Source: Cyanophora paradoxa CCMP329 (taxonomy: Eukaryota; Plantae; Glaucophyta). From it: a stretch of DNA of 64,000 bases. The stretch lies in NCBI GenBank assembly GCA_004431415.1, contig QPMI01000460.1, positions 61,170 through 125,169 of the forward strand, given 5' to 3'. This document shows, piece after piece, positions 27,101 through 59,505 of the stretch. The translations under genes were made by a program, and so were the position numbers. Below the pieces are notes generated by a model, which worked only from the letters and a program-made list of their open reading frames with translations, was not told the DNA's origin and made no database searches. Each line of letters starts with the position of its first letter. Position 1 is the first letter of the stretch.

Positions 27101-30100
27101 GCTCCGGCGGAGGGGCCCATAGCCGGCGATCCCGAAGCGGGGGCGGGGCGGGGGCTTCGACCGGGGCGGAGGAGGGGCGGAGGCGGCGGCGGCGGCGGCC
27201 GGGCGCGGGCCGGGCGCCGGCGCCGCTGGCTCCCCGTGCCGCGCCGTCCGTGACGCACTCGACGGGGCGTCGGCGGCGCCGGAGAGGGCCCTGCTGTGCC
27301 GGCGGGAGGCCGTGGAGCGCCTCTCGTCCTTCCTCGCGGCCGCGCACTGCCGGCAGGGCGGGCGCGGCGCAGGCGTCCTCTTCGTCGAAGGGGACGCGGG
27401 GGCCGGCAAGTCGCTCCTGATCTCGGAGGCCCTGCGGCTCGCCGAGGCGGCCGCGCTGCCCTGCCTGCTGCTCGAGGCCGACCCGCTCGCCCCGCACGCG
27501 TACCAGCCCTTCCGCCAGGCACGCCCGCCCTCCCTCCCTCCCGCATGGCAGACGGGGCTAACAGCGCCTGCAGCTTCTTCGTGCGCTTGTGCCGCGGGCG
27601 CACGGCGGCGGCGGCGGCGGCGCGCGGAGGCGGTCCATATTGAGCCCGCCTGACAGCTGGGGCAGCGTCGCGGAGGCTCCGGCGCCCACCGGCTTCGGCG
27701 GGGGCGGGCGGCGGCGCTCCGTGGTCAGCCCGCCCGGAAGCTGGGTCGGAGCGCCAGAGCCGCTGGCGCCCGGCGCCGCCGGTGGGCGGAGGCGTTCCTC
27801 CCTGGTCAGCCCGCCCGGAAGCTGGGTCAGAGCGCCGGAATTCGATCCTCTGAATCCGGCGCCCGGCGCCGCCGGGGGGCGGCGGCGTTCCTCCCTGGTT
27901 AGCCCGCCCGGGAGCTCGGTCGACGCCAGCGCTATGGAACACGAGCCGCCGTGCGCGCCGCCGCGCGCACCAGACACCTGGCTGCACAGCGGCTTCGCGC
28001 TGATTGTGCCGCCCCGCGACGCGCAGAACCGCCGCCGCCGCCGCCACAGCCTCCGCGCCGAAGGCTCCGGAGATCGTCATCCCGTGCGGCGCCCCGCTCT
28101 ACTCCCCCGCCCGCCCCGCCCGGCCCTGCCCGTGACGCGGGGGCAGGCGGCGGGCCTCGCAGCTGGGGCCCTTCCTGGCCGGCCTGGGCGTCGGGGGGCA
28201 AGAAGAAGCCGCCCTCCTCGCCGCCTTCCTCGCCGACGGCCGCGGCCGGGGCTTCAGCGTCTCCAGCGCCGCCAGCGCCGCCGACGCCGCCGCCGATGCC
28301 GCCGCCGACGCCGACGCGGCGGCCGCTGGCGGCGGCGGCGGCGGCGGTGGCGGCGGGGAGGGCCCCTCGTCCTCGATCCCCACCGCCCGCGACTCGGAGG
28401 CCGCCTTCGAGGCCACGGTCCGCTCCGATCCAAATCCATCGAACTTTGTGAGAAATTACTTTAAAGCTGCTCTTTAAGTCAAGGGGCCTCGGCTTTAAAG
28501 AGAAAGCCTTGATCTAGATCTTTGAGAGCCTTGTTATTATTGAGAGAAAGGCCCCGAGAGGCCTTTTTCTTATATGAGAGCCTCTCGGGGCCTTTCTCTC
28601 AATAATAACAAGGCTCTCAAAGATCTAGATCAAGGCTTTCTCTTTAAAGCCGCTCTTCAATTCAAGGGGCCTCGCTCTTAGAGCTCTGAAGAAGGAAGGC
28701 CCCTCAGGGCCTAAGGCTCTGACGTCGACGCTAAGGCCCCTCAGGGCCTAAGGCGCTTTATAATATTGACTTAAAGTTTTTGTAAGGTTCGTATAATTGA
28801 AAATCTGACGCGAACGCTGCCTGCCCCGCGCGCGCGCAGGCGCTGCCGGAGGACGCGGCGGGAACGGAGGGCGCGGCGCCGCGCCTCCTGCGCCTCCTGG
28901 AGGCCCTCCTGGCCGCCGTCGTGGCCCGCTCCGGAGCCGCCCTCCTCGTCGACGACCTGTGCGCCCGCCCGCCCGCTCCGCTCCGTTCCGTTTAGAGCTT
29001 GAGCTTACAGCTCCTAGCGAAACCTCTGTGTTGTGAAGCCCTGCAGCTGACGAGATGCGATAGAACGCCCCGCCCCGCGCGCCGCCGCCGCCGCCGCGCC
29101 CTCAAGCGTTCGCCCGCCGCGCCCGCAGGCACGCCTTCGACTCGGCCTCGCAGCAGCTCCTCGCCCGCCTCGCATCCGACCCGTGCGCCCCCGCCCCTCC
29201 CTGGCGCCCCGCGCCTCCAATTCGAATTCGATCTCACCTGACGCGCGCCTCACCTGGCAGGGCCGCCTCCCTCCTCGTGACCGCCCGCCACGTACCCCGC
29301 CCCGCCGCCTCCAACGAGGCGTGTACCCCGCCCGCCCGCGATCCGCCGCCGACGCCGCGCGCCGCTGACCGCCCCGCAGTTCCGGCGCCTCCGCGCACGG
29401 GCCGCCGCCGCCTCTGCCTCCGAATCCGGCCCTGCCGGCGTTCTCGAGCTGGGCCCCCTCGACGCGGCGGGTGCGCATGCGCGAAACGCGGCGCCGCCCC
29501 GCCCCGCTCCCACTTATTCGCGATCGCGATCACGATCGCGATCGCGACAGAGGTCCCAGAGTTCGTCGCGCGCCTGCTGGAGCTCGACGCGGAGCGCGTA
29601 CCCCCCTGGCTCCCCGCCGCGCTCGCCGAGAAGTCCCACGGCAACCCATTCGCCCTAAAGGAGGCCCGCCGCCGCTCACCTGAGCTCTGAGCCGAGTTCT
29701 CACCTGAGATCTGAGCCCGGGCTCAGATGGTGGCGTACCTGAAGGCGAGCGGGTGGCTGGCGTCTGCCCTCGCCCCCAGCGCCCCCAGCTCCATCGCGGG
29801 GGGTACCCCCGCCCGGCCCGCGCACATCCCCCTCCCCGACAGGTACCGTCCTCGCCCCTCTCCCTTTCTCCGACCGACTCCGCCTCCTCCCCGCCCCTTC
29901 CAAGCCTGGAGCGCCTCATCGTCGCGCGGCTGGACCGGCTGCCGCCCACGGCGGCCCTCGTGCTCAAGCTCTGCTCGGCGCTGGGCCCCCGCTTCGAATG
30001 GGGGCTCGCCGCCTTCGCGCTGGAGGGCTACGCCGAGGGCCGCGAGGTCGCGGCCGCGCTGCAGGTGCAAACGAATCGAAGCTCCTGAACTTAAGCTTCT

Positions 30101-40370: not shown

Positions 40371-41042
40371 GATAGGGTTTCCTAGCCGTTAGTGCTTCGT
40401 TTGCACTTCGTTCGCAGTAGTACCGTGACTTGACCCGCGGCTTCTCGCGATTTCCTGAGTCACTGTACCCCTGTACGAAGATGCGACCCTAGCTACTTTT
40501 TCTGACTCTAGCTTGATACTTTCCGGTAGCCGTGTCCTAGGGTACACAGTAGTCTGTGATTAGCAGCTTTCTCTTGCAACGTGACAGCCTGCTCGCCTGC
40601 TGCTGGTACGCTACGGGAAGGTTGCTAAGGTCTACTGGGACGTATAAAACCTCCTAAAACATCCTCGCCGGGACCAGCGCACGCCAGCTGACGGACTTGC
40701 TGCGCACGTCCGTTGGCCGCGAGCGTGAACCCGCTGGACTACGAGGAGGCGAACGCTTGACGCTTTCGGAGAGCACCGCTACTGGCGGACGCACTCCGCT
40801 GACCCGCCTCGCCGCCGACGCTTCCCTTCTCGAAGCTTCGGACGCGCCTCCGCCGCTCACTCGCGCAGTTGGGGAGCAGCCCGCCGTACCGCGGCATCGG
40901 CTAGCTCCCTGGCTCATCGTTCGTGCCGCGCGCGCATCGGGATCGGTTGCGGCGGTCCGACTCGAACGACGGTCACGGGCCAGCTCGCGTACCGTACTGC
41001 GGTCGCGGCCCGACGGCAACGTCTACGTCGAACGACCGCGTG

Positions 41043-41696
41043 ATGGAGCGCGAAGGCATGACTTCCGGCGAGATGGCCCGACCTTCCCCCGGCCAACTGA
41101 CAATGCTCAACCGCACGGCCCGAGTCGCAGCGGCGCACGCCGAGGAGATCGCGCGCCGGCGGGTCATGGGCGCGGAGCCGCCGCAGGCGATCAAGATGGA
41201 GGACGGCAAGATGGGCCACACCACCGGGATTCCCGTCTCGCCCAACGGCGTCTTCCAACATCACAACGCCATCCGTTCGGCTACTCGCGGAGACAAGAAG
41301 TACTCCCTGCTGGACGACGGTTCGCAGGCGGCGTACCACGCCGTCGATTTCGGTGTCCGTTCGCTGCCGGCGGGACTAACGGAAGTCTACCGTTCGACGG
41401 TCGAGTTGCACCGGTCTCTCGTCGAAAACCTCGTCGACGCAGAGAGCGAGCTCACGAAGGCGAAGGCGACACTCGCGACGGCTACGGAGGAGGCGGCCAA
41501 GGAGGCGGCGCAGAAGGCCGTCCAGACGCGACAGGCCGTCGTCGACAAACTCCGGGCTGAGATGCCCTCGGACATTATTCGCGGCGTCCCCTCGTACATT
41601 AAACACATAAAGAAATACAAATTTAAATCCCTCCGCTACGCGCTTCGCGCTTCGCTCCTGGATTTAAATTTGTATTTCTTTATGTGTTTTTCTTAA
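41043..41696 (+). CDS. Intronless hypothetical protein with C-terminal coiled coil, at the element boundary
   Basis: Open frame MEREGMTSGE...ESELTKAKATLATATEEAAKEAAQKAVQTRQAVVDKLRAE; TATAAAA near 40643; may extend upstream via a frameshift. Confidence 0.45.
   Translation: MEREGMTSGEMARPSPGQLTMLNRTARVAAAHAEEIARRRVMGAEPPQAIKMEDGKMGHTTGIPVSPNGVFQHHNAIRSATRGDKKYSLLDDGSQAAYHAVDFGVRSLPAGLTEVYRSTVELHRSLVENLVDAESELTKAKATLATATEEAAKEAAQKAVQTRQAVVDKLRAEMPSDIIRGVPSYIKHIKKYKFKSLRYALRASLLDLNLYFFMCFS
41601..41689. terminator. Perfect 30-bp stem / 29-nt loop hairpin (terminator/polyadenylation or terminal structure)
   Basis: AAACACATAAAGAAATACAAATTTAAATCC (41601-41630) pairs exactly with 41660-41689; function inferred. 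Confidence 0.55.
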
Positions 41697-41699
41697 ATA

Positions 41700-41935
41700 A
41701 ATTTGTATAATTAATCGATAAATATGTATTTTCATGTTAATAAATATGTATAAATTAATCGATAAATATGTATTTTTATATTAAATTTTAATAATCTCGA
41801 TTAAACAATTGATATAATATCGATTAATTTATTGATATAAACGCGATTAATATGTATTTTATGCAAATTTGATATAATCTCGATTGAAGGAACATAAATT
41901 TATGATATAATCACGATTGATATAATCACGATTGA
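41700..41935. repeat. Very AT-rich degenerate repeats (AATCGATAAATATGTATTT; GATATAATCNCGATT)
   Basis: Directly visible. Confidence 0.7.
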
Positions 41936-41981
41936 AGTAGTCCACCGCCCATTCTATCGGAAATCGCAAAAATTCACACAG

Positions 41982-42764
41982 AGTTGCATTATGTCCAATT
42001 GAACAATCGATGAAATATCGGTTGAAAATAATTCACTCGTTACTGCATTATGTCCAATTAAACAATCGATGATATATCGGTTGAAAATAATTCACTCGTT
42101 ACTGCATTATGTCCAATTGAACAATCGATGAGATTGCAGCGTATTTTGTTGGAAGAGATGGTTACTGCATTATGTCCAATTAAACAATCGATGATATATC
42201 GGTTGAAAATAATTCACTTGTTACTGCATTATGTCCAATTAAACAATCGATGAGATATCGGATGAAAATAATTCACTCGTTACTGCATTATGTCCAATTA
42301 AACAATCGATGAAATATCGGATGAAAATAATTCACTCGTTACTGCATTATGTCCAATTAAACAATCGTTGAGATTGCGGCGTATTTGTTGGATTAGATGG
42401 TTACTGCCTTATGTCCAATTAAACAATCGATGAGATTGCGGCGTATTTTGTTGGAAGAGATGGTTACTGCATTATGTCCAATTAAACAATCGATGAGATT
42501 GCGGCGTATTTTGTTGGAAGAGATGGTTACTGCATTATGTCCAATTAAACAATTGATGAGATTGCGGCGTATTTTGTTGGAAGAGATGGTTACTGCATTA
42601 TGTCCAATTAAACAATCGATGAGATTCGGTTGAGATTTTTACTGTATCAAAAATGACCCCAGAGTTGCATTATGTCCAATTAAACAATTGATAAGATTGG
42701 ATTCTGTTTTTTACTGTATCAAAATTGTGTTTCAAGTGTAACATGTCCAATTAAACAGTCGATA
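41982..42764. repeat. 13-unit array: constant core GTTACTGCATTATGTCCAATTAAACAATCGATGA with three recurring spacer types (59/63-bp units)
   Basis: Core starts ~41985, 42039, 42098, 42161, 42220, 42279, 42338, 42400, 42463, 42526, 42589, 42664, 42743; spacer order A A B A A A B B B B C C'. Confidence 0.9.
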
Positions 42765-42770
42765 ATCAAT

Positions 42771-43047
42771 GTGTAACAGGTGAATCCCAAGGTGTAACGG
42801 GTGTAACAGGTAAATCCCAAAGTTTTGGATTTTCATCTCCTATGAGGAAAGTTTGGGAAACACCTGTTACACCTGTTACATGACACTATAATCAATGTAA
42901 GGAATCGAATATATTAATGCTTTGTTTGATAGATGTAACAGGTGAATCCCAAGGTGTAACAGGTGTAACAGGTAAATCCCAAAGTTTTGGGTTTTTGGCC
43001 TCCCTAGGAGCGAAGTTTGGGATTTACCTGTTACACCTGTTACACCT
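42771..43047. repeat. Two tandem iteron-containing palindromes (AGGTGTAAC units), candidate replication origin
   Basis: Second copy has a perfect 32-bp stem (42952-42983 / 43016-43047); first copy 42771-42880 is imperfect. Confidence 0.8.
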
Positions 43048-43301
43048 GACGATATTCAATAAGACATGTTATATTTCTTCAAAATCTCAGTGTGATTAAC
43101 TCGGAAATCGCGCTGCTATCTGCTTCTCCGCTTTCTCCAACCCTGAAAAGATCTCTGTTATTCTCTCATCTATCAATTTAGATATTACGGAGGTCTTACT
43201 TTCAAAAAATGATGCTCGTGGGCAACCCAAAATGATTTAAGGAAGAAGCGACAGTATAGAGTAAACCGGGTAAAAGATTTTCTCAGACGTAATTCAGTGT
43301 C

Positions 43302-43919
43302 ATGGCGTATCTCTTCGAAGGTGAGCCGATCTTCTCGGTTCCGATTGCTGAAATGCGATTTGGTGTGAAGGATATTCTTGATCTTGCTGAAACTATTGAG
43401 GTTTTGCATCGAAAGATTGGAACATACTCTTATCCTGGAATGGATCAAATGGTTTGTTTTGGTTATTTTCGGAGAAATTCGGATCGGATTTGTGCGAGAA
43501 CTCGCGATGATCGGTTCTTCTATAATCATGTGAATTATAATGATCATGGTAAGTTTAGCCATCTTAATGAAGTGCGTAATGCTGAACTTGATTTCATCGT
43601 TGTTGTTAATTTTCATGATCTTCTTTTCAACACTACAAAGACTCACGATGACGTAATTAATGCAATTGGGATATGCTATGGACAAGAAGAACATCGTGAA
43701 CGTTACTATTTCCACATTCCAAGAGATCTTCGTGCTTATCATGCTAAGTTTGAAGAGCATGGATGGAAGATTGTGAACCGAGCGACTCTACGTAAATACC
43801 TTAAACAAAATGGCGCTCGTTGGGTTCGCGAAAACAACAGATGGTATACAGAGGATCAGAATGGTGTTGTCGCTGATATCTTCAAACCATATATCCCAAT
43901 AGCTAATCGTTTCCAATAG
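43302..43919 (+). CDS. Viral hypothetical protein (205 aa)
   Basis: Intact ATG-stop ORF with viral composition; no recognised motif. Confidence 0.7.
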   Translation: MAYLFEGEPIFSVPIAEMRFGVKDILDLAETIEVLHRKIGTYSYPGMDQMVCFGYFRRNSDRICARTRDDRFFYNHVNYNDHGKFSHLNEVRNAELDFIVVVNFHDLLFNTTKTHDDVINAIGICYGQEEHRERYYFHIPRDLRAYHAKFEEHGWKIVNRATLRKYLKQNGARWVRENNRWYTEDQNGVVADIFKPYIPIANRFQ

Positions 43920-44805
43920 CTACAAACTCCAACTGAAACGAATTATCGATACCATTCATATCTACAAGATCACCAAAATAATCACGAAATTCAACTGTTA
44001 ATTCACGAATAACAAGGTTTTTGTCTGTTATTTTTATGTATTCACCATGCTCTCCGCTATGGTAAACATACTTCCCGATGTCCTGACTCAATTGTAATCG
44101 CAAGATCGCGCCTTGATTCTGCGGTTGCGATTTCGGGACTATATTGTGGTTGGATGCAAAAGAAGAGAGTTCTTTGATGTGCATATACAAGTATTGCTCA
44201 GCGTTCATATCCGCCATCTTTGGACTTGTTGCTTTGTGTTGCAACGGCACTGGATCTACACCTTCAAACGTAATTCCCCATTGTGGGTGATCAGGTGTTA
44301 TTGGTCTTCCTGCATACGATAAGAAATTCTCAGGAGCGAATACAGACCTGTTATCTTCTAAATTGTGTTGCTGGCTTACCAATAATGCAGAACTCAGACC
44401 AAGTAGTTTGGCGATTCTATTGTTTGACGCTGCTATTTCGAATGGAACGCTGCTATAAAACTCTAACTTGTATGTTGTCGGGTTGTAGTATATCTTAAAG
44501 AATGTATTTTCAAGAACTTCGTAGTTTAAACCGTAATTATATGGTTGAGTAACTCCAAAGTGTCCTTGGTTTATGTAACCACTTGGTAATGGGAATACTT
44601 GCTGATTAAGGATGAAACCACCAATGTTATAACGAACTATAATATAATCGGTTCCAATCGAATTATAAATGCTGTTGGGAATCTCTGCATATAAGATACG
44701 ACACTGTCGCGGTCTGGTTATTGGTGTGGTAAGTGAGACCTTGTAAGCATTTTCTTTCTGTCCATCTAATCGATCTCTACTATCGACATTGACAAGCCGA
44801 ATCAT
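43903..44805 (-). CDS. Minor capsid (penton, single jelly-roll) protein 1
   Basis: N-terminal VNVDSRDR..YKVSL..ILYAEIPNS and C-terminal LTVEFRDYFGDLVDMNGIDNSFQLE, typical PLV/NCLDV penton pattern. Confidence 0.85.
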   Translation of the reverse strand: MIRLVNVDSRDRLDGQKENAYKVSLTTPITRPRQCRILYAEIPNSIYNSIGTDYIIVRYNIGGFILNQQVFPLPSGYINQGHFGVTQPYNYGLNYEVLENTFFKIYYNPTTYKLEFYSSVPFEIAASNNRIAKLLGLSSALLVSQQHNLEDNRSVFAPENFLSYAGRPITPDHPQWGITFEGVDPVPLQHKATSPKMADMNAEQYLYMHIKELSSFASNHNIVPKSQPQNQGAILRLQLSQDIGKYVYHSGEHGEYIKITDKNLVIRELTVEFRDYFGDLVDMNGIDNSFQLEFVAIGND

Positions 44806-44833
44806 TTTATTATATGGTTATAGATAAAAGAAG

Positions 44834-45838
44834 ATGCCTGTGGAATACGTTGAAGTGTCTTCCTTCAAAACAATACCTAATCTGGATGCTCCAACATCAC
44901 GATTTGTTGCGGATCTTCCAAAGACGTATGAGAATGTAAGAGCGGTTCGCCTCGTCTCCGCTGAATTCTATAACTCCATCCCACTCATTAGCGGTGAAAC
45001 AGAACCTGGGGATGCAACAATAGAGGATGCCTTTATTATCAATTTCAGCCAAAAGTCCACATCCACCGGTGCAAATGCTCCTGAGATTCTATATGATAGT
45101 TGGCGTTCTATTAGACCTGGTGCAGGTCTAAAAACCCCAATCAATACTCATCAGCAACTCGTTGCCCGAATCAATAACCGTTTTGAGAATCTCTCGCCTC
45201 CTTCTGCAATTCGCTGTGGTTGGGATGTAACCGCAAAAAGAGTTATCTTTTATGCTCCTGTGGAATTCTATATTTGCTTCTCATATGCAAAAGATCCTTC
45301 TGTTTCCGCAATCGAGAAAGCGCTACGACACGCTCGAATCTTGGGTCTGGATGCTGGACGCTGGGGAAACAAGTTTATTAAATCACAAGTCTATGGAACA
45401 GATACAAGTTCCGTTTTTACAGGTGCAAATGTAAACGGTATTATCTCAACATTCCCCACAGAGACCTGTAAAGATAACGTCTTTTTCGTGAGAGTAAAAG
45501 AACTTGGTGACCTCGTCCAATGTGCCGATGGTCTCCTTACTGGATACTTCCATAAACTCACGGTTCAAGATAAAGACTTTGCGGAACACGTTGTTTACAA
45601 TTCGACGGAAGCAAATCCGCTGTATAAATACTTTAATAAGAAACTATCACTATCGCAATTCTCGGTAGATGTAGTGAATAGTCAAAATGAATTAATCGAT
45701 TTCGAAGGTCAACCTGTGCATCTGACATTCGAGATCCGGTATGGTGACGAACCCGCCGGTGATCCAATTTATGAGTATTTCAAAATGAGAATGAGAGAGA
45801 CCCACCCCTTCTATCCAAATATTGCCGGATTCGCGTAA
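44834..45838 (+). CDS. Minor capsid (penton) protein 2
   Basis: FVADLPKTYENVRAVRLVSAEFYNS and LSQFSVDVVNSQNELIDFEGQPVHLTFEI. Confidence 0.8.
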   Translation: MPVEYVEVSSFKTIPNLDAPTSRFVADLPKTYENVRAVRLVSAEFYNSIPLISGETEPGDATIEDAFIINFSQKSTSTGANAPEILYDSWRSIRPGAGLKTPINTHQQLVARINNRFENLSPPSAIRCGWDVTAKRVIFYAPVEFYICFSYAKDPSVSAIEKALRHARILGLDAGRWGNKFIKSQVYGTDTSSVFTGANVNGIISTFPTETCKDNVFFVRVKELGDLVQCADGLLTGYFHKLTVQDKDFAEHVVYNSTEANPLYKYFNKKLSLSQFSVDVVNSQNELIDFEGQPVHLTFEIRYGDEPAGDPIYEYFKMRMRETHPFYPNIAGFA

Positions 45839-45892: not shown

Positions 45893-47292
45893 ATGGATGT
45901 TACCTCGACCCTTCAACGTCTTTCTCTGAAAGAGGCGCTTACAACGCCCGAGGAAGCCAAAGCGTTCTTCCTCGATAACTCGCTTATGCTTGGTCTTGAA
46001 TCGAAGACGAAACCCGTTCTGGTAACCGTTAGTCCATCGACAACCTACGATAACAACGTTGGTCAACGCGTTTCTTTCAAACTTCCCCGCTACAACTTTG
46101 TCGGTAAAATCGAACTCGCTTTCGATCTTCCCGAACTAACTGCTTTTACTGGTGATGACGACCTGGTGCGAAATGGTTACACTCGTCCCGTCGGTGCGCT
46201 TGTAGAGCGTCTTGAATTCTCGTATGGCTCGTATACCTACCACGTGCCGTCTGATTTCCTGGCGATTTTCCCACTGGTCTACTATTCTGAGGATCAACTG
46301 GCGAAAAAGAAGCGTTCAATGGGAATGCTTCATGGTATCCCCGCTCACGGAACCAACCGTAAAGGTGGCGCTTTCTTCGTCGAAATTCCGGTGCCGTGGT
46401 TGAACCATTATCTACCACTTGGCGCTCTCTCGGGTGAAGCCGTCATCACTGTGTGGTTTAAGGAAGCTAACAAGGGATACCTTGAAACTTCTTATGGTGG
46501 TCGCTCTCTTCCTGTTGTAGGAAGCACTGCTGCTGATAAATCATCAGATGATGGACTTGGAAATGCTACGAGCGTTACACTTGCTAATGTTGGTCAAAAC
46601 ATCACCACTGGCGGTATTACTGGGTTCGAAGTTGCTGGAACTGTTCCACCAATGACCCATTACATCTCCATTAAAGCACCTCGTCTCTACATGCATGCTA
46701 TCAACGTTTCTGATGAACTGTTTGCAACTGTTATTGAGAAGGTTAAGACCACAGGGATGGCTATTCCGCTCTCGACATCGGTTTCGTCGATTCTATCGCT
46801 GTTGCTGCAAAAGGTAACACTCAACCCAACCGAATTAATCTTAGCCAAATCTCCGGTCTCGTTTATGCTCTTCTTGTCTCTGTTCGTGATGCTGATGGTG
46901 TCGATACCTCGAATGGTTCTCACAGCGTCCTTAAAACGCTTGCGAATGCGAAGGATATCACGATGACTTGTGAGATCAACGGACAGCGTCTTTATTCGAC
47001 GGAGCCGATCCCGCTACTCAAAGGTGCGGAACTCATCGCCGATGCCTTCAAATGCTCGAATATGGACAAGGAAGCAAACCGTTACGTCCTTACTGGATTC
47101 CCATTCTGTGTTGATGGTGAGAAGGCGATTCGCAACATTGCCCAATCTGGATATGTTGACCTTACGAACTCGTCTTCATCATTCCTCACTCTATATCTTC
47201 CTGCTGATCGCACAATTACTGTTAACGTTCGCGCTCTCATGCATTCGTTCATTATTGTCGATAAGGACGGAATTCGCCGCATTAATCTCTAA
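45893..47292 (+). CDS. Major capsid protein (double jelly-roll), ~466 aa after repairing one -1 frameshift near 46770
   Basis: GQRVSFKLPR..KIELAFDLP; GALVERLEFSYG; VEIPVPW..YLPLGAL; C-terminal GYVDLTN..FLTL..VNVRALMHSFIIV..G; lies between the pentons and the ATPase. Confidence 0.8.
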
Positions 47293-47353
47293 ACCATTAT
47301 CAGTAAGATTTCGTTATTTTTATCTATCTTTATTAAGAAGAATCTACTACGCC

Positions 47354-48250
47354 ATGTCTGACGTTCCCGAATTTAATGCTGGTGAGATGATAAACCCACC
47401 ATTCCGTGTCTTAGCAATTGGAAAATCTGCGACGGGTAAAAGCGAAGCGGTCAAGTATTGGCTAAAACAGCTACATGATGCGAAAAAGATAGATGTGGTT
47501 CTCGTTGTAAGTGGGACGAGTTTCAATCATTTCTGGGATAAAGTAGCAACATTGCAACTCGGTAAATGGGATGCGCCTTACATCGCTAAACTTCTCGATG
47601 AAAGACAAGAGAAAATTGAGAAAGGAGAACCCGTTAACCAGTTATGTGTCGTTCTCGATGATCTTATAGACAATGAGATAGTCGATCTAACCCGTGATAA
47701 AATTATTGGAAGTCTTTACAGCCGTGGAAGACATTCGAAAATTTCGATTATCTGCATAACTCAGAAACTGCGTAAGGTTTCTTCAACCATTCGCGTTAAT
47801 TCGGATTATGCAATGTTCCTTAGTGCCGCCAATCGCAAAGAACTGGAAGCCATTGAAGAAGAATACAATATCATGCGGGATAAAGACGCTTTCTATAAGA
47901 TGTTTGAGGAATACGTTCACTCCTATCAGTTTCTCATTTGGAGTTCTGCGAATTATTCGGTGGAATACTATGTTGATAAAGCGGAACTCGTTAAAGAGTT
48001 TGGGTTTCCTCGGTTTCACAGAAAGCCCAAAAAGAAAGAAGACGAATTAAAACCACCCGAGAAGGAGGAAGCGCCGAAAGAGATAAAGAGCGCTGTTCAC
48101 ACGAATAAGTTGATGCGATATAAGAGGGATTGTAAAATTATCTCTGTATGTTATAATATACAATGCCGCCGAAACGTAGAGGTGTTCCCGCTGGTGCTAT
48201 GTCATATTCCGGCGGTGAAAGTCATGGATCTCTCAACACCACACCCATGA
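47354..48250 (+). CDS. A32/FtsK-family genome packaging ATPase
   Basis: Walker A GKSATGKS, Walker B LCVVLDD, SRGRHSKISIICITQ, IRVNSDY; true stop possibly ~48135. Confidence 0.92.
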   Translation: MSDVPEFNAGEMINPPFRVLAIGKSATGKSEAVKYWLKQLHDAKKIDVVLVVSGTSFNHFWDKVATLQLGKWDAPYIAKLLDERQEKIEKGEPVNQLCVVLDDLIDNEIVDLTRDKIIGSLYSRGRHSKISIICITQKLRKVSSTIRVNSDYAMFLSAANRKELEAIEEEYNIMRDKDAFYKMFEEYVHSYQFLIWSSANYSVEYYVDKAELVKEFGFPRFHRKPKKKEDELKPPEKEEAPKEIKSAVHTNKLMRYKRDCKIISVCYNIQCRRNVEVFPLVLCHIPAVKVMDLSTPHP

Positions 48251-49346: not shown

Positions 49347-49583
49347 ATGGCGACTGTAATTCATATAACCGAAGACATGATTAGCGTTGTCGAATTCGGC
49401 GATGAAGAAGAGGAGACCCGCGCCAATTACAAGATGAGAGATGCTCTAAGGAAGCGAACGCTCTACAACGAAGACCCCGTTTATCGGGAGTATAAGAAGG
49501 CGCAATCGCTCGCTTCATATTATCGTCGTAAGGAGCGGGAGGGAATCGAAAACAAGTCACGGGGACGTCCACGAAAGTATTGA
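49347..49583 (+). CDS. Small basic protein with C-terminal AT-hook
   Basis: Ends ...KSRGRPRKY*; preceded by TATAAAG. Confidence 0.65.
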   Translation: MATVIHITEDMISVVEFGDEEEETRANYKMRDALRKRTLYNEDPVYREYKKAQSLASYYRRKEREGIENKSRGRPRKY

Positions 49584-49789: not shown

Positions 49790-52128
49790 ATGAACGCTGC
49801 CGCCAAGAAATCCCTGAAACGCCTTGTTGATTGGCTTCGTGAAGACGATGTCCTGTCTGAGAATATCGTAATACCCGTTGATCCCGATACCAAAAAACCC
49901 TTTTCGCCCATAAAGACGGATCGTGGACTTGGGATAAATTCGATGAAGCCCTGAAATCCGGTAAGTATGTTGCTTGGGGCATTCTCGCTCGCAATATCGT
50001 GGTTATCGACTTCGACCAAGAGGAGGATTTCACCAAATTCGAGGAGCAATTCCCCGATGATTTCGGTGGTGTCAATCCTCTTGCTAAAACCAAAAAAGGA
50101 TATCATGTTTACTTCTCTCGTCCTTCTGACTTCGATGCTGTGAAGATCTGGGATAAAGCGGGTGCTTTCAAAGGTTATCCTAAGATCGACTGTAAGACAA
50201 TTGCGTCCACTGGAACTGCTGGGTTGATCAACGTTTCCCCAAGCCCCGGTAAAACTTGGATCAGAGAACCATGGGCGGAAGGCTGTGAGTTGATCGAACC
50301 GAGTGCTGAACTCCAAAAGTGGATGATTGACAACTACCTTTTTCCGAAAGGCGGACACTCTTCTATTGATAGGAGCATTGAAGAGGATTTGCAGAAACAC
50401 ATTCTCCGGAAACTTGAAGAATTTGGTTTCATCTTACCCACAATCATTAATGAGACCGAGAAGGGTTACAGTTTCACTGCTGAGAACAAAGGTCTGATTT
50501 GTCCCTGCTGCAAGGGAAGCCATGACTCCAACAATTGGTATATACTTCAAGGGAACGAGAAAGACAAGTATATTGTTTCAAGTTATAGCACCAATTGCAA
50601 GAAGCGAGTTATGACGGTTCGCGTTCAAGCTGATACCGATGTTCAGATTGAAAAGCTAATTGATCGGTCGATTGGATCTGATGGCGGACATTATGATGTT
50701 GCCCAGGTTGCTTTTCTTGTTCTGCGAGACAGCTACAAGTATTCAAACAAGACGTGGTTCAAGTTCAACGAGGCTTACGGAATCTGGGAGATGGATGAGA
50801 CCGGGAAACGAATCTATCTGTGTTTGAGTTGCAGGGTTTGCCCGGCTTATCTTCAACGTGCTGTGCAATTCGCTCAGAGAGCGCTTCGTGATGAAGAGAA
50901 TCGTGCATCTTTGGAGGAGAGATCACAGGTTCTTCTTGGTATCGCAAAGAAACTCAAACAGACTAATTACCGAACTTCTCTTCTGTCTGATCTCACAGTT
51001 CTGATGAACGATAAGACATTCTTCGAGAGACTTGATACTGTTACCAATGTGATTGGATTCACAAATGGCGTATTTGATCTGAATTCTATGACTTTCCGAA
51101 GGGGACTCCAGAAGACATGATCAGTAAGACTGTTGGTTATGATTATTGCCCCGAGGTGGATTCTGTGAAAGTCACCAAGATCCTTTCCATCTACTCTGAC
51201 ATCATCGAAGAGGAAATTGAGCGCAATTTCGTGATGGGTTCGATCGCTTTCTCTCTGAGTGGTCGCACAGATATTCAAAAGTTCAATTTCTGGACTGGAA
51301 TTGGAGCCAATGGTAAATCTCTCGTTCAGGAGATGGTCAAGCAAACATTCGGACAGTATTTCGGAACAATCAATATGTCATATTGGACGAAACCGAAAAG
51401 AATGCATCAGACGCTACACCTGAACTTGCGGATATTCTGGGTCGTCGCATTATCTTTTCAAATGAAGCGGAAGATGGCGACAAGCTTCAAATTAGCAAGA
51501 TCAAAGAGATTACAGGTGGTAACGAGATGAAGGTTCGCGCCCTGTTCAAAGATCCTGTTACCTACATTCCTATGGGTCAAATCTTCTTATCGACGAATGA
51601 GAACCTGGGGATGAGTAAACCCGATGCTGCGATTTACCGGCGACTCTCTTACTATCGTTTCTCTTGCGTCTTCAAGCCCAACCCTCAACCTGGTGAGAAG
51701 AAAGCGGATACTTCACTTATGTCCATCATGAATGACGACGAATACAAGATGGCTCAAATGTCGATCTTCTTGGACATGTGGAAGAAACAGGATCTTGCAC
51801 AGCTGCTGATGAATCCGCCACAGTCTATCATCGATCAGGGACTGGAATACTTCAATGATAACGATAAAATCGGGAGTGGCTCCGCAGCACTTATGAGAAG
51901 ACTGGAAGCCGAAACGATTTCATTAGGAGTGAAGCTATCATTACTGGCTATCGTTCTGTTGATGATAAAACCGATGCCGCCAGTATTGGAAAGCGAGTCC
52001 GCGAAGTCTTTAATGTGAAGTCTGAAACTGTTCGAGAAAGAGGTCAGGTGAAGCGTGGTTACTTCGGACTGAAAAAGAAGATTATGATTGAGGACGACGA
52101 TGACGACGACGTAGAGGCTCCCAACTAA
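49790..52128 (+). CDS. Prim-Pol (AEP) primase / Zn finger / D5-like SF3 helicase fusion, four -1 frameshifts
   Basis: KKP..GIL..VVIDFD..KTKKGYHVYF (Prim-Pol); CPCCKGSH; IGFTNGVFDL (D5_N); Walker A TGIGANGKS; IIFSNE; IKEITGG; FLSTN; acidic tail ending TAA 52128. Confidence 0.9.
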
Positions 52129-52195: not shown

Positions 52196-52288
52196 GTGTA
52201 ACAGGTGTAACAGGTAAATCCCAAACTTCGCTCCTAGGGAGGTGAAAATCCGAAAACTTTGGGATTTACCTGTTACACCCGTTACACC
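52196..52288. repeat. Third iteron palindrome, inverted relative to 42952-43047, just downstream of the primase-helicase
   Basis: GTGTAACAGGTGTAACAGGTAAATCCCAAACTTCGCTCCTAGGGAGG...TTTGGGATTTACCTGTTACACCCGTTACACC; the loop matches the reverse complement of the earlier loops. Confidence 0.85.
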
Positions 52289-52505: not shown

Positions 52506-55500
52506 ATGCGTTCAAAATCCAAAATAAAAATGTTCCTTTATAGCAAAGATGCCCGCCAAACGAACAGACTGATCAAAGAAAAGAAAAATGAAATACTTGG
52601 ATTGTTAGGAACTCTCTTAGTTACAGGTGAGATCACCGAAGCGGAATACGATAGAGAAGCCGCCATCTTAGATAGACGACCGCGATTAGGTCAACTCACT
52701 GAGATTGCAAATGACCTCTACGATCGCATGCAACGAATGGAGGAATTTATGGGTGAAGGACAGAGATTAGGAGCAATTGAACCGGATATCGAAGATGGAC
52801 AAGCGATGAATCAAGCGTATTCGTGGTTGACCTATCGCGCCCGAAATGAAGTTGTCGTGGATGCTATCGAATTCCTCGAAAGAATCGCACCAAGTCTACC
52901 GCAACGCATTAAAACCTGCTTAGAGCAACTGAGAGCCGTTAAAGTCCGTCTGACTTTCGTTTGCAAATTTACCAAAGTAGGTAATCCGCGCATCTATATC
53001 ACCAAATTCATTTACAGCGATTATTTCGTAATTACCCGATCCCGCAACATAGACACAGAAGTTCGCAAAGCGTTACAGAAAATGCAAGAGGAAATGACGC
53101 AAGTGGATAGTTACCGTTTGGAGAAGATCGAAATACTTAGAGGCATTATCATGTCTTATGCACCTGTGGGAGGATGCTATTTCGCAACTCCCGAATGGAT
53201 CGCATCCAAGAAAGCGACGGTGAATGTTAAGAATATCGACGGGCAAGATTGCTTCAAGTATGCGATTTTGGCTTACCTGCATCGAAAGGACATCAATAAA
53301 CACAAGAGTAACGAACCGAGCCAATACCGCCGATGGTTAAATGAACTCAATTTCGATGGTATTCAGTTTCCCGTTGCCTGTGATGCTGAGGTAATCGATC
53401 GATTCGAAGAACTGAACCCCGAACTCTCTATTAACATTTACGGAGCCGATAACGCCAAAGAGTGTTTCTATCCTCTCCATCAATCAAGTAACCCAAGAAG
53501 AAAGACCAAGATTAATCTTTTACTTATCGAAAACACCGAAGATGATCGTGGACACTACATTACTATCATGTCTTTTAGTCGTCTTCTGAAAACTACGTTT
53601 GATAAAGCATGTGATGGTCGCATTTATTACTGTGAAACCTGCTTATCGCGTTTCAGAACTCAGGAGAAATTAGACCTGCATGTTGAAGCAAATCGCTGCA
53701 TTGATTGGAGGGAGAGCAAAGGCAAATGCCCGAAAGTGGGAAGCGCAATTGAATTCGGTCTGCAACATCTACGTAAAACCGTGTGGCTTCCTGTGATCTG
53801 TTATGTTAAAGTTGAAGATCATTCAGTTGCTATCGATGCTCAGAGAAGTAAACGTGAGATTAAAGCGGTTTCACTGAGAGTGGTAATGGGAGAAGAAGTG
53901 AGAGCATACCGTTTTGAGGGAGCCGATCCCCTTGGTTCTCTCTTTGTTACTCTGCAAGATATTAGACCCGAAATCGTTGAGACGCTGTTTAGAAATATTC
54001 CGATGCATCCACTCACAGATGATCAGAAGGCGGAATACAAGGTAACAAAACACTGTTACATTTGCTCTCAGAGATTCACCCACGAAAACTTCCCGGTTCG
54101 AGATCATTGCCACCAATCCGGCGATTTCATCGGAAAGGCATGCCGAAACTGTAACCTCCACCGGCGAATTTCGAAGCAAACCAAAGTAGCTATCGTGGTG
54201 GATCACATGGATGAATGCGGACACGGAATATTCCGCAAGATTGCACAGCAAGACGATAAACTTCGTGTTGAGATTCTGAGCAAGAATTTCGATCAATACC
54301 TATCGCTTCAATGGGGCATGTGGAAGTTCATTGATGCTTCCCATTTCATGGATTTCCAATCTGTGGATGTGGGCGATTTAATGAGAAAGTTTGAAGCATT
54401 CCGCAAATTGGCGTTTTCTCAATATGGATTGGATCCCGCACATTATGTTAGCGCACCAGGTCTCTCTTGGGACGCTATGCTCAAACATACGAAAGTTAAG
54501 ATTGAACTTATCGATGATGTAGAGAAATACGAATTTGTTGAGAGAGCCATTAGAGGTGGATTTGCTACCATGCCCACACGATACGCAAAGGTAGAGAATG
54601 CTGACGATCATATAGTTTTGTTGGACGCAAATAATCTTTATGGGTATGCTCTCAGCCAACCACTACCTATCGGAGATTATCGATGGGAAGATGTCACAGA
54701 GGCACTTAAAGAGGTAGAGGGTCGAAGCGCATTTATTGAAGTTGACCTTGAATACCCCACATCGCTTGAAGAACATTATGATTTCCCACTGATTGTGAAT
54801 AAAGAAGTGATCACCAATGAGATGCTTGGTGATTATCAACAGAAACTATTAGATCTGACGGGCGAAAAGATCAGCAAAGACCCCAAACTTACAGCGACAT
54901 TTACACCCAAGAATAAATACGTGATTGCTCGACCTCTTCTTAATTACATCGTTAAGAAGGGTGTTGAAATCAAGAAAATAAATAAGGTTCTCTCTTTCGC
55001 TACTTCCCCATTCATGAAGTCTTACATTGGTTTGAATACTCTTCTCAGGCATGAATCTACTAACCATTTCGAAAGCGACTTCTTTAAACTCATGAACAAT
55101 GCAATTTACGGTAAATGCTTGGAATCTTGCAGGGGTCGCTCAACTGTCAAGATCGCTAACAGTGAGAAACTCTGTAAGAAATACGCAGCAAGTCCGCTTA
55201 TCAAAGCGACCAATGTATTAAACGAGAATGCCGTTGCCTTTGAGATGTATTCGAAGCATGTGAACTAGATAAACCCGTAGCAATTGGCGCTTTCGTTTTG
55301 GATTTTGCGAAACTACATAACTATCGGTTCTTCTATGATGTAGTAAGGAAGAAGTGGGAAACCGCTAAATTACTGTTCCACGATACCGATTCGTTCTGTC
55401 TTTTCCTGAAAACCAATAATCTGAACGAAGATATGAAAGAGATAGGTGAGTATCTCGATAGGAGCAATTACGATAAATCCCATCCTCTCGTGAGTATCAA

Positions 55501-55828
55501 AAACCGCATGGTTCCAGGTAAATATAAAAATGAGTTCCCAAATGCAAAGATCATGGAGTATGTGGGTCTGAGATCGAAACTCTATGCTTTCAGAACTGAG
55601 ACCAACGAAAGAGTAAAGATGTCGGGGACTTCCTCGAAAGAGGTTCATTTTGATGATTTTAAGAGATGTCTGTTCGAAGGCATCATAAAAACAGTATCAG
55701 TAACAAACAAGCGAAGGCAAGACCACAACTTATATGACTTGGAGAGCAGAAGGGTCGCTCTAAACCAACTCGATAGCAAACGGAAGATATCAGCCGACGG
55801 CATTCACAGCATTCCATTTGGTCTTTAA
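52506..55828 (+). CDS. polB: Protein-primed family B DNA polymerase (Polinton/adintovirus type) with OTU-like protease region, Zn finger and EndoVII-like insert; one -1 frameshift at ~55263
   Basis: KKATVNVKN..DCFKYAIL..GHY; CETC..H; VRDHCHQSG..CRNCNL; YGLDPAHYVSAPGLSWDAML; IRGG; DANNLYG; KLMNNAIYGK; HDTDS; GLRSKLY. Confidence 0.93.
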
Positions 55829-56013: not shown

Positions 56014-57384
56014 ATGCCCTCAGCACAGATAGGATTGCGACCCATTCCTAAAATCGTAAAGAAGAGCATGAAAGAAGACCAAGGGAACATGCTACCGATA
56101 ACCATTCCGGTCGAAGAGAAGAACACACGAATCTTAAAGAAGTCGGAGATGGTTAAACAACTGATCCCGGAGGCATTGCCTACTGAGACTGTAACGAAGA
56201 ATCGAAGATCGCGAAGAAGTTTTACGATCCGCGCACAGGTTACAAAGGTTTCGGGGCAATGAGAAAGGAACTACCAGAGGAAGACTACAAGAAGATGAGA
56301 GAATGGTATGATAAACAGGAAGTCGTTCAGATAAACGCACCGACCCTTTCAAGAAAGAGAGATCCGATGATTCCGATTCGGCAACCTCTCGATACCTACG
56401 TAATCGATCTGCTCTTCTTCCCAGCATACAAGAACCAAAACGACGGATACGATACGTTCATGTCCGCGATGGAATCTACCTTACGCACGGGTTACATCAT
56501 TCCGATGAGAGATAAGAGCGCTCTTAGGGCGCTTGCGGCGTTTGAACAGCTACAACGAAGAGTTCCTCGACCTATCGCACGCGTTCAGAGTGACAGCGGA
56601 AGCGAGTTCACAAATAACATGTTCACGAATTACCTTGCTAAGAAGTTCATAGACCATCAGATAAGCGATGTCGCAGATCATCGAAGCAAGGTAGAATCGA
56701 AGCGTTTAACAAGCAGATCAAACGATTGATCACGAACTATTGCATAGCAAACAACACAGCGCGATTCTTCGATGTATTGGGAGACATTGAGTATAACTAT
56801 AATAATACCATCCACTCAGCAACCAAGAGAAAACCAGCAGAAACGACGGAAGATCATTACCGTGAGATTATCGGATTAGAAGATGAGAGGTTCAAGAAGT
56901 CGATTGCTTACTTGGATGGTATCAAACAGGGTATGTTTGTGAGAGTGAGAATAGAAAAGAACCCATTCGCTAAACAAGGTGTCAATTGGTCGCGAATCGT
57001 CTATACTGTCGAAGGGAGAGAGGGTTTCAAGTTCAGGTTGCGAAATCCGAACGGCGAAATGGTCGAAGGAGATTCGCTTTCCACGAACTGTTACCTATCA
57101 AAGGTGTTGAGTATCACGAAGCGCCCACAGTGGATGCACTTGAACAAGCGAAAGAAGAAGCCCGGGTCGATTCGGCAATTCGCAAGGAAGGCATCGAAAA
57201 AGCGGATGACGTCCCAGAAGAACCGTTAACACAAGCCAGAACCAAGAAGAAAGGTAAGGCGGAACGTGAATTAAAGAAGTTAACCATAGCAGGAACCCAG
57301 AAACTATCAGAAGTCAACAGTCAGAGATGGTATACAGACTTTCAGACCTCAAAAGAGACATATTCAGCCCACAAACCCGGGTAA
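56014..57384 (+). CDS. Retroviral-like (rve, DDE) integrase of Polinton type, three -1 frameshifts
   Basis: FYDPRTGYKG..WYDKQE; YVIDL..NDGY; VQSDSGSEF; (GR)IEAFNKQIK after repair; YNNTIHSATKRKP; GMFVRV..NWS..YTV. Confidence 0.9.
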
Positions 57385-57522
57385 ATCTAAGATCCAGTTC
57401 GCGAAAGTAGCATAGATGTGTAGAGGATGCAAAGAGGATTCCGGCGATGGTCGCGGTTTCGAAAATGGATGAGTTGGTGAAGAGTTACAGCAGTGTGTAT
57501 GAATTTCTTGGAATTTTGGGTT

Positions 57523-57740
57523 CAGTTATCATATCATACCTCTCCCCCGGTTATCATATCATATCATACTTTCCCCCCCAGTTATCATACTTCTCCCCCA
57601 GTTATCATACTTCTCCCCCCAGTTATCATACTTCCCCCAGTTATCATAATTAATCCCCCAGTTATCATAATTCATCCCCAGTTATCATATCATACTTCTC
57701 CCCCCCAGTTATCATACTTCATCCCCCAGTTATCATATCA
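57523..57740. repeat. ~10 copies of CCCCAGTTATCATA(CTT) between the convergent integrase and patatin genes
   Basis: Directly visible, unit 18-29 bp. Confidence 0.85.
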
Positions 57741-57934
57741 CACTTCTTCCCCAATGACGTCACGACATATATACCGCATATATACACGTGACGTCACGAC
57801 ATATATACACTATATATACCAAAACCTCCGTATGCCGGTTGACCAAGAAAAAATGTTTGGAAAAAATGTATATATACGTATACATATACATATATATAAT
57901 CAAAAAAATCGGAAAAAATTCCCTCTCTTTTCTA

Positions 57935-59457: not shown

Positions 59458-59505
59458 CTTTACTTATCTTAAATTTAATAAATCTGTATAAGTAGAGCAA
59501 GCAGG

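What the first reader, a model, noticed from the sequence alone, without database searches (positions are those of the whole stretch)
41982..42764. CRISPR-mimicking repeat-spacer array near the provirus end
Seen: 13 copies of a ~34-bp core beginning GTT and containing ...CAATTAAAC, separated by 25-45 bp spacers of only three types (A A B A A A B B B B C C'), next to an AT-rich leader-like tract that shares the AATCGAT motif. Spacers recur and no cas gene is present, so it is not a canonical CRISPR. Inference: a protein-binding iteron array, a TIR-internal variable repeat, or a small-RNA source. The interleaved spacer order implies recombination through the core rather than simple slippage.
Basis: partly seen in the sequence, partly recalled or inferred. 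Interest (0 to 1): 0.7.

Follow-up and report, generated by a model that had tools for sequence, protein, structure and literature searches.

The report
Compound minisatellite at algal provirus end
The CRISPR-looking array is a real block of 13 repeats sharing a 29-base core, lying between the hairpin end and a likely replication origin of a multi-copy DNA virus integrated in a likely algal genome; its few, recurring 'spacers' are likely reshuffled halves of the repeat itself rather than captured foreign DNA, so it is probably a fast-evolving viral end repeat, not an immune memory.

Summary
The array is real: 13 copies of a 29-bp core (12 near-identical) and the order A A B A A A B B B B C C' are confirmed. 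It is not a CRISPR: spacers recur, no credible cas gene, no Rfam CRISPR repeat, no convincing protospacer. It lies 0.3 kb inside the left end of a multi-copy Polinton-like provirus, between an 89-nt terminal hairpin and two palindromes of a 9-bp repeat. A third such palindrome follows the D5 helicase gene, and the same repeat follows helicase-type genes in 8 IMG/VR loci, so these are likely origins. Other copies in same-species sequencing runs join the core to at least five further variable halves that look like mosaics of one another. Five tandem duplications of 'AB' reproduce the order, so interleaving alone does not need special recombination. Best reading: a compound subterminal minisatellite, like poxvirus end repeats and unit-built PgVV TIRs; a protein-binding role is plausible but untested. 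The right end lies outside the window. The scan noted this hairpin type on other DNA of this genome (e1-10595593), not the array. Interest 0.3.

The parts
40403..41602 (+). Multi-copy GC-rich host-side element (LTR-retroelement-like, inferred) whose ORF 41043- is interrupted by the provirus at about 41602|41603
   Evidence: Contigs of 40632-41602 (depth 1378 in X1) run on into other sequence beyond 41602 in 5 laid runs; 40403-40640 has about twice that depth
41601..41689 (.). Terminal palindrome/hairpin, 43-nt arms, at the left end of the provirus
   Evidence: Inverted repeat I3; ssDNA fold -32.2 kcal/mol, z -11.9
41696..41940 (+).
   Evidence: polymorphic among copies (joints 41859->41831, 41954->41919, 11-nt deletion at 41913)
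41945..41984 (+). A-like half-unit ('unit 0') before the first core
   Evidence: global alignment to spacer A, p 0.006 (0.001 after trimming ends)
41985..42765 (+). The array: 13 copies of a 29-bp core (starts 41985, 42044, 42103, 42166, 42225, 42284, 42343, 42405, 42468, 42531, 42594, 42666, 42737) with variable halves A A B A A A B B B B C C'
42766..43090 (.). Two 162-bp direct repeats, each holding a palindrome of the 9-bp GGTGTAACA repeat (42790-42880, 42952-43047); likely helicase origin; array unit 13 runs directly into the first
   Evidence: (z -6.4, -11.0)
52196..52288 (.). Third GGTGTAACA palindrome, 68 bp behind the stop of the D5 primase-helicase gene; likely origin
   Evidence: (z -9.7); same repeat lies 67-411 bp behind helicase-type genes in 8 IMG/VR loci
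43903..45838 (.). Two divergent ORFs (43903-44805 on -, 44834-45838 on +), likely minor capsid proteins (resemblance recalled; no Pfam hit)
   Evidence: RNA-type contigs show GT..AG joints in the second
45893..47292 (+). Double-jelly-roll major capsid protein, split over two frames in this sequence
   Evidence: 2 relatives among 1.84e9 representatives (57%, 36%); model of the 57% relative matches PBCV-1 capsid protein, E 5e-14; atlas capsid clusters
47042..48250 (+). A32-like packaging ATPase
   Evidence: Pox_A32 E 2.1e-10
49882..52128 (+). D5-like primase-helicase, in several frames
   Evidence: D5_N E 4.5e-4, DUF5906 E 2.5e-6
52506..55828 (+). Likely family B DNA polymerase, in pieces (motifs seen by eye; no Pfam hit)
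56259..56729 (+). rve-type integrase fragment
   Evidence: rve E 7.3e-5, below the curated cut-off

Best explanation
The array is a compound (two-part) subterminal minisatellite of a hairpin-ended Polinton-like provirus, lying between the terminal hairpin and palindromes that are likely the helicase origin, and its 'spacers' are likely diverged halves of the repeat unit that are duplicated and swapped by misaligned copying or unequal exchange through the shared 29-bp core. Shown: the anatomy, the recurrence of spacers, extra spacer types in other copies. Inferred: once two unit types differ in their 3' halves, only the core can pair between them, so exchange keeps the core uniform while the halves drift and recombine, which by itself gives a repeat-spacer look. 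Inferred and untested: the ATC..GAT dyad repeated from the AT-rich tract through every core likely gives binding sites for a replication or packaging protein in the end region, while the halves act mainly as spacing DNA with A/T tracts.
For: Position 0.3 kb inside the element end, between hairpin and 9-bp palindromes. Only 4 spacer types for 12 positions; AABAAABBBB reduces to AB in 5 tandem duplications. C and C' are homologous (p 0.0005) and unit 0 is A-like (p 0.001-0.006). The upstream 23-nt repeat resembles core 3' half plus spacer-A start, so the 'leader' and the array share one repeat family. Other copies join the core to at least 5 further halves (joint 42377->42662; loose ends at 42011, 42013, 42042, 42504, 42660, 42699; tables cut, so a lower bound); by eye these begin like B/C' (GATTG...), carry the same T- and A-tracts and end ..CAC like unit 0 and A, and one reads as B-like body plus the start of A. 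Variant depths in X1 (2024) and X3 (2012) are proportional, ratio 2.2-2.8 in 10 of 11 single-contig pairs (by hand). Precedents: vaccinia ends have hairpin then 70/125/54-bp repeats of variable number (PMC5825015, passages); PgVV TIRs are built of units that differ between isolates (10.1101/2022.07.28.501842, figure legend); compound minisatellites with a shared 5' part and different 3' parts (PMC2566889, passages).
Against: Homology of A to B could not be shown (p 0.05, 0.71 after trimming), nor B to C/C' (p 0.08-0.51) or, firmly, A to C (p 0.09, 0.03), so a foreign origin of some halves is not excluded. The likeness of the run-derived halves was judged by eye from cut fragments only. Four X1 variants (42471; contig 42468-42557; joints 41954->41919 and 42728->42143) are not listed for X3. 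The core is more uniform than neutral drift alone would suggest, which also fits selection. No binding protein was identified (78-aa ORF 49347-49583 has only a weak AT-hook hit, E 0.094, and no homologue). RNA-type runs hold contigs on parts of the array, so an RNA role is open.
Confidence: 0.62

Rival explanations
1. The core is a selected protein-binding site (iteron or transcription-factor box), and the array is a loading platform or a sponge for an element-encoded or helper-giant-virus protein; copy number and spacing would tune replication, packaging or interference.
For: Core nearly invariant while halves differ; CAATC-N5-GATTG or longer dyad at the core/spacer junction in B, C' and A units, and related ATC-N-CGATT dyads in 6 upstream repeats; directly abuts likely origin palindromes; in the phage satellite PLE one repeat beside another was the bound iteron (PMC7145576, passages).
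Against: Spacing is irregular (59-72 bp); the recognisable iteron is a different 9-bp motif; no enrichment of the giant-virus early-promoter pattern WWWWWTGW (5 observed, 5.2 expected); exchange through the core explains its uniformity without selection.
Confidence: 0.22
2. The array is transcribed and processed into small or guide-like RNAs that silence the provirus family or act against a co-infecting giant virus.
For: 3 of 3 laid RNA-type runs have contigs on parts of the array and on 42663-42981; two of them also show GT..AG joints at 44935->45003 that 2 of 2 DNA runs lack. One 21-nt exact match of spacer A variant, antisense to an ORF of an AT-rich (23% GC in the 621 bp held) viral contig.
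Against: Neither strand folds better than shuffles (z +2.1, +1.0); single units z -1.0 to +1.1. The 21-nt match does not extend and is near chance (about 1e-3 to 1e-2 per Gb; core words gave similar lone hits); B and C gave 0 hits. Contigs show neither strand, ends nor level, and read-through from the neighbouring genes would give the same cover.
Confidence: 0.08
3. A cas-less CRISPR-like memory: spacers are captured from foreign DNA by an element-encoded integrase and inserted at the core.
For: Core (29-35 bp) and spacer (24-43 nt) lengths fall in or near CRISPR ranges (PMC4869251, passages); about ten spacer types family-wide; A versus B unalignable; the element has an rve integrase.
Against: Spacers recur five times each; no credible Cas among 69 frames; no Rfam CRISPR repeat; core pair absent from 185,579 prokaryote genomes; no full-length protospacer in window or IMG/VR; run-derived spacers look like mosaics of each other.
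Confidence: 0.03
4. Assembly artefact: a short repeat expanded or scrambled by long-read assembly.
For: The element has many frameshifts and holder runs share only 0.68-0.70 of its words; unit 7 differs by one base from the run contigs.
Against: Core-spacer junctions of A, B and C types are covered by contigs of 3 of 3 DNA-type runs, and unit-specific variants are ordered along the array. Exact unit number and order in this copy are not independently confirmed.
Confidence: 0.03

Closest known systems
Orthopoxvirus terminal repeats (vaccinia hairpin, then 70-, 125- and 54-bp tandem repeats; PMC5825015 passages; Baroudy and Moss 1982 seen as a title in its reference list only)
   Same: Terminal hairpin followed by blocks of 50-70 bp tandem repeats of several related lengths, variable in number; virus of the same capsid lineage with a D5 helicase.
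   Different: Here unit types are interleaved in one short array with a sharply conserved core, the element is an integrated Polinton-like virus, and origin-like palindromes adjoin the array.
Unit-built TIRs of the Polinton-like virus PgVV/Gezel (10.1101/2022.07.28.501842, Extended Data Fig. 1 legend; figure not seen)
   Same: PLV ends made of near-identical units whose set differs between ends and isolates.
   Different: Unit sizes and sequences not seen; no constant-core/variable-half design is described in the legend; TIR status of this array untested.
Compound minisatellites (Candida glabrata; PMC2566889 passages)
   Same: Two or three motifs of different length intermingled irregularly, sharing the 5' part and differing in the 3' part (10 of 15 cases there); explained by slippage and gene conversion.
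   Different: Those are coding and in multiples of three; this one is non-coding and viral.
Virophages/PLVs with terminal palindromes in Halocafeteria seosinensis (10.64898/2026.07.28.741278, passages)
   Same: Palindrome at the very end of an integrated element, proposed to prime replication; insertion into host transposable elements.
   Different: No internal repeat array is mentioned in the passages seen (0 occurrences of 'array'); there the palindromes go mainly with non-pPolB elements, whereas this element has both D5 and a likely family B polymerase.
CRISPR arrays (criteria from CRISPRDetect, PMC4869251 passages)
   Same: Near-identical 29-35 bp repeats with 24-43 nt intervening DNA and an AT-rich flank.
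   Different: Recurring, partly homologous spacers; no cas; no known repeat family; no protospacers; eukaryotic virus end.

Membership tests
CRISPR array | Near-identical direct repeats of about 24-37 bp | tested here: met
   29-bp core, 2 or fewer differences in 12 of 13 copies
CRISPR array | Mostly unique, mutually unrelated spacers | tested here: not met
   A x5, B x5, C and C' homologous, unit 0 A-like
CRISPR array | cas genes in the element | tested here: not met
   69 of 69 frames of 75 aa or more in 41600-64000 scanned: only a weak Cas5d hit (E 0.0028) on the capsid frame and a weak CARF hit (E 0.0023) antisense to the polymerase; the element's right part is outside the window
CRISPR array | Repeat belongs to a known CRISPR repeat family | tested here: not met
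   Rfam: 0 matches at gathering score in the window, no CRISPR family among 10 matches to E 5; two-copy core pattern absent from GTDB genomes
CRISPR array | Spacers match foreign protospacers | tested here: inconclusive
   Exact 20-21-mers in IMG/VR: A 1 non-extending hit near chance, B 0, C 0; exact search only, run-derived spacers not searched, the host's own giant viruses may be unsampled
CRISPR array | Polar spacer acquisition at a leader | tested here: inconclusive
   AT-rich flank is itself repeat-derived; variant depths proportional between a 2012 and a 2024 run in 10 of 11 pairs, but these may be one cultured lineage
CRISPR array | Processing into unit-length RNAs | not testable with these tools
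   only assembled contigs were available
Polinton-like virus / Polinton (the carrier element) | Double-jelly-roll major capsid protein | tested here: met
   (via a 57% identical relative; model pLDDT 55.8)
Polinton-like virus / Polinton (the carrier element) | A32-type packaging ATPase | tested here: met
   Pox_A32 E 2.1e-10
Polinton-like virus / Polinton (the carrier element) | Replication and integration genes (family B polymerase or primase-helicase; rve or tyrosine recombinase) | tested here: met
   D5_N, DUF5906 and rve hits, two of them under the curated cut-off; polymerase motifs by eye only
Polinton-like virus / Polinton (the carrier element) | Terminal inverted repeats and target-site duplication | not testable with these tools
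   right end outside the window, no genome held; contig depth beside the array (1384-1538) is like that of capsid-region contigs (913-1458) in X1, 400 versus 223-311 in X6: inconclusive
Compound minisatellite | Tandem units of two or more lengths intermingled without regular period | tested here: met
   59/63/72-bp units interleaved
Compound minisatellite | Units share one part and differ in the other | tested here: met
Compound minisatellite | Unit number, order or type varies among alleles or copies | tested here: met
   further unit types and junctions in same-species runs; whole arrays of other copies not seen
Iteron array (replication-protein binding sites) | Specific binding by an initiator and need for replication | not testable with these tools
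   needs binding and replication assays

The most novel reading that the evidence does not exclude
A family of eukaryotic Polinton-like proviruses carries a shuffled cassette of about ten spacer types on a constant core that is transcribed from an active copy and yields guide-like RNAs, or acts as a protein sponge, against a co-infecting giant virus: a cas-less CRISPR analogue in a eukaryotic virus.
Probability: 0.07. Interest if true: 0.85.

Novelty: new variant of a known kind. Interest (0 to 1): 0.3.

Why it matters
It shows how a virus end can come to look like a CRISPR array without capturing foreign DNA, a caution for scans of eukaryotic and viral genomes. It also maps a compact end region of a divergent PLV family (hairpin, dyad repeats, core array, 9-bp palindromes) that makes the open question of how PLVs start replication testable; the match of the 9-bp palindromes to repeats behind helicase genes of prokaryotic viral elements may be the more useful lead. 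If the array instead made guide RNAs or titrated a giant-virus protein, it would be a new antiviral mechanism.

Tried and rejected
Whole host genome: none held, so no right TIR and no full arrays of other copies. Related free viruses: ATPase search in IMG/VR found none (41 pattern hits, 0 confirmed); word-based MCP search found none; core words gave lone single-copy hits only (2 IMG/VR contigs of one locus, 1 metagenome contig); a three-copy 8-mer pattern gave 46 loci, 43 of 46 in open frames, best 18 of 29 identity to the core, no blastn hit. tblastn of the window's D5 pieces against the 80 palindrome-motif loci gave 0 hits, so the helicase link rests on Pfam calls for 38 of 89 candidate ORFs from 27 of 49 non-redundant loci; many other motif hits are coding (collagen-like) repeats. 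Coding role of the array: longest frames 78-81 aa, only repeat-driven weak Pfam hits. Sigma-70 promoter scan near chance, 14 versus 9.8 expected, and not relevant to a eukaryote. Giant-virus early-promoter decoy: no enrichment. The record holding the spacer-A hit could not be searched further. Candidate binding proteins: 78-aa ORF has no homologue; the ORF beside the array was not analysed in the atlas. Literature: searches listed no paper describing a CRISPR-like array in a PLV or virophage end (listings only, open-access library); bioRxiv supplements and the PgVV TIR figure were not visible and may show similar units; Baroudy and Moss 1982 was not held.

Full report
Observation. The array is as described. 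Thirteen copies of one anchor lie on the + strand from 41991 to 42743 at spacings of 59, 59, 63, 59, 59, 59, 62, 63, 63, 63, 72 and 71 bp. A 26-nt core pattern matches 12 times with up to 3 mismatches and never in 100 shuffles. The constant part is 29 bp: 6 of 13 copies are identical, 5 differ at one base, one at two and the last at five. The order of the variable halves is A A B A A A B B B B C C'. Only units 2-11 begin with GTT; those five bases vary with the preceding spacer and belong to it. An A-like half-unit precedes unit 1 (p 0.001-0.006).

Setting. GC drops from about 68% to about 40% near 41.6 kb. The low-GC part encodes a double-jelly-roll capsid protein (two relatives among 1.84 billion representatives, 57% and 36% identical; a model of the closer one, pLDDT 55.8, matches the PBCV-1 capsid protein at E 5e-14), an A32 ATPase, a D5-like primase-helicase, an rve integrase and a patatin, plus a likely family B polymerase recognised by motifs by eye. 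Several genes are split over frames. This is a Polinton-like provirus whose right end lies outside the window. The host side has an MCM8 gene 97% identical to a EukProt protein; a glaucophyte alga is likely, from a recalled naming style and from earlier scan notes, not verified here. Contigs of same-species runs show that 40632-41602 is itself multi-copy and continues into other sequence elsewhere, so the provirus begins at about 41603 inside another mobile element. Contig depths of about 900-2100 on the provirus against a lowest variant of 93 in run X1 suggest roughly 10-20 copies (inference; the tool warns that depth is no copy number).

End anatomy. From the junction inward: an 89-nt hairpin (41601-41689, z -11.9); an AT-rich tract of 44-, 23- and 15-nt repeats; the array; then two 162-bp direct repeats each holding a palindrome of the 9-bp repeat GGTGTAACA (z -6.4 and -11.0). 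Unit 13 runs straight into these. The 'leader' is thus not a CRISPR leader but older-looking members of the same repeat family: its 23-nt unit resembles the 3' half of the core plus the start of spacer A, and an ATC..GAT dyad recurs in 8 upstream repeats and in the cores.

The 9-bp palindromes. A third copy lies 68 bp behind the D5 gene. A 20-nt word of this repeat occurs in 96 IMG/VR stretches; 80 were fetched with flanks, 49 were non-redundant, and 38 of 89 nearby ORFs from 27 loci were scanned. Many hits are coding collagen-like repeats. Of 18 loci where the word is outside or at the edge of a long frame, 8 have it 67-411 bp behind a DUF927/Cch, VapE-like or DUF3987 gene (helicase-type, recalled), mostly with inverted copies nearby, and 2 lie beside a small terminase. 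The window's D5 itself gave no tblastn hit to these loci. The palindromes are therefore likely origins of the kind used by primase-helicase satellites such as P4 and SaPIs (their initiators are described in PMC7145576, passages; the origin layout is recalled). A role as transcript-end hairpins is an alternative (recalled from mimivirus).

CRISPR test. Repeat and spacer lengths are CRISPR-like (PMC4869251, passages), but A and B each occur five times, C and C' are homologous (p 0.0005), and no credible Cas was found among 69 frames: the only Cas-named hits were weak, on the capsid frame (Cas5d, E 0.0028) and antisense to the polymerase (CARF, E 0.0023). Rfam has no match at gathering score and no CRISPR family to E 5. 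A two-copy core pattern is absent from 185,579 prokaryote genomes. Spacers have no match above 12 nt elsewhere in the window. In IMG/VR, exact words of B and C gave 0 hits and A gave 1: 21 nt, not extending, antisense to an ORF in AT-rich DNA that resembles a giant-virus gene (recalled; no Pfam hit). A Markov estimate is 1e-3 to 1e-2 per Gb, near chance for a collection of this size, and core words gave similar lone hits. These were exact searches, and the host's own giant viruses may be unsampled.

Other copies. Five DNA- or RNA-type runs (X1 in both; X3, X6; X15-X17 makes six in all) show the same core joined to at least five further halves (joint 42377->42662 in 3 of 3 DNA-type runs; loose ends at 42011, 42013, 42042, 42504, 42660, 42699), a degenerate core between C' and a B-like half (42728->42143, X1), and variants of the upstream tract. 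The tables were cut (158 and 73 loose-end rows not shown), so this is a lower bound. By eye the new halves start like B and C', carry the same T- and A-tracts, and end in ..CAC like unit 0 and A; one reads as a B-like body followed by the start of A. That is what mosaics of one repeat family look like, not captured fragments, but the comparison was not computed. Variant depths in a 2024 and a 2012 run are proportional (ratio 2.2-2.8 in 10 of 11 single-contig pairs, by hand); four X1 variants are not listed for X3. Against my reading, A could not be shown homologous to B (p 0.05; 0.71 trimmed), nor B to C.

Order of units. AABAAABBBB reduces to AB by five tandem duplications, so interleaving does not require a special recombination system. 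Units 1 and 3 share a core variant yet carry different halves, which hints at exchange within the core or recurrent mutation.

RNA. Three of three laid RNA-type runs have contigs on parts of the array and across 42663-42981, and two show GT..AG joints at 44935->45003 absent from two DNA runs, so at least one copy of the family appears transcribed and spliced. Contigs give no strand, ends or level. The array folds no better than shuffles on either strand (z +2.1, +1.0).

Mechanism. Most likely the array arises and changes by misaligned copying and unequal exchange near the hairpin end. Once two unit types differ in their 3' halves, only the core can pair between them, which keeps it uniform while the halves drift and recombine (inference). 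The repeated dyad may bind a replication or packaging protein; this is untested and no candidate protein was identified. Confidence 0.62; selected binding array 0.22; small-RNA source 0.08; spacer capture 0.03; artefact 0.03.

Comparison. Vaccinia ends have a hairpin followed by 70-, 125- and 54-bp repeats of variable number (PMC5825015, passages; a 1982 title in its reference list ascribes such repeats to unequal crossing over, text not seen). PgVV TIRs are built of units that differ between isolates (10.1101/2022.07.28.501842, passages and legend). Compound minisatellites with a shared 5' and different 3' part are known from Candida glabrata (PMC2566889, passages). Terminal palindromes are reported for Halocafeteria virophages and PLVs (10.64898/2026.07.28.741278, passages). 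Passages of PMC12220804 and PMC8547959 mention TIRs but no such array. Searches listed no report of a CRISPR-like array in a PLV end; unseen supplements and figures may hold one. No related array was found in IMG/VR.

Verdict. Observation confirmed; interpretation partly supported. It is a new variant of a known kind, a compound subterminal repeat of a hairpin-ended PLV. Whether it is mirrored at the right end, bound by a protein or processed into small RNAs remains open. Interest 0.3.

Noticed in passing
window 42790-42880, 42952-43047, 52196-52288; loci L010, L017, L025, L027, L034, L035, L049, L072: Palindromes of the 9-bp repeat GGTGTAACA, one right behind the D5 gene; the same repeat follows helicase-type genes in 8 IMG/VR loci, suggesting that a eukaryotic PLV shares an origin motif with prokaryotic primase-helicase elements.
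   Followed up: partly
   Followed up: partly
window 44935-45003 and 45420-45472: GT..AG joints (67 and 51 nt) in RNA-type contigs inside a likely minor capsid ORF of a diverged copy; 67 is not a multiple of three, so splicing would shift the frame.
   Followed up: no
window 43310-43903: The 205-aa ORF beside the palindromes is replaced by a different 623-nt cassette in the copy seen in RNA-type runs: a variable gene slot next to the end region.
   Followed up: no
window 40403-41602: The provirus sits inside a multi-copy GC-rich element with a 238-bp part at twice the depth (LTR-like); the uninterrupted ORF appears in RNA-type contigs.
   Followed up: partly
window 57511-57820: A second, internal non-coding minisatellite (about 21-bp units around CCCCCAGTT) and two 34-bp repeats with a TGACGTCA palindrome between the integrase and patatin genes.
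   Followed up: no
window 49347-49583: 78-aa basic ORF ending in an AT-hook-like RGRP motif (Pfam E 0.094), no homologue found; a candidate binder of the AT-rich end.
   Followed up: partly
window 28490-28652: Perfect 73-nt inverted repeat with a 17-nt gap in the host part (MITE-like).
   Followed up: no
window 15799-15998: Host-side 35-bp tandem repeat, 5.7 copies, 91% matches, AT-richer than its surroundings.
   Followed up: no
window 58332-59512 (-) and 62466-64000 (+): Patatin-like phospholipase in pieces and a tail-fibre-like repeat protein in the provirus.
   Followed up: no
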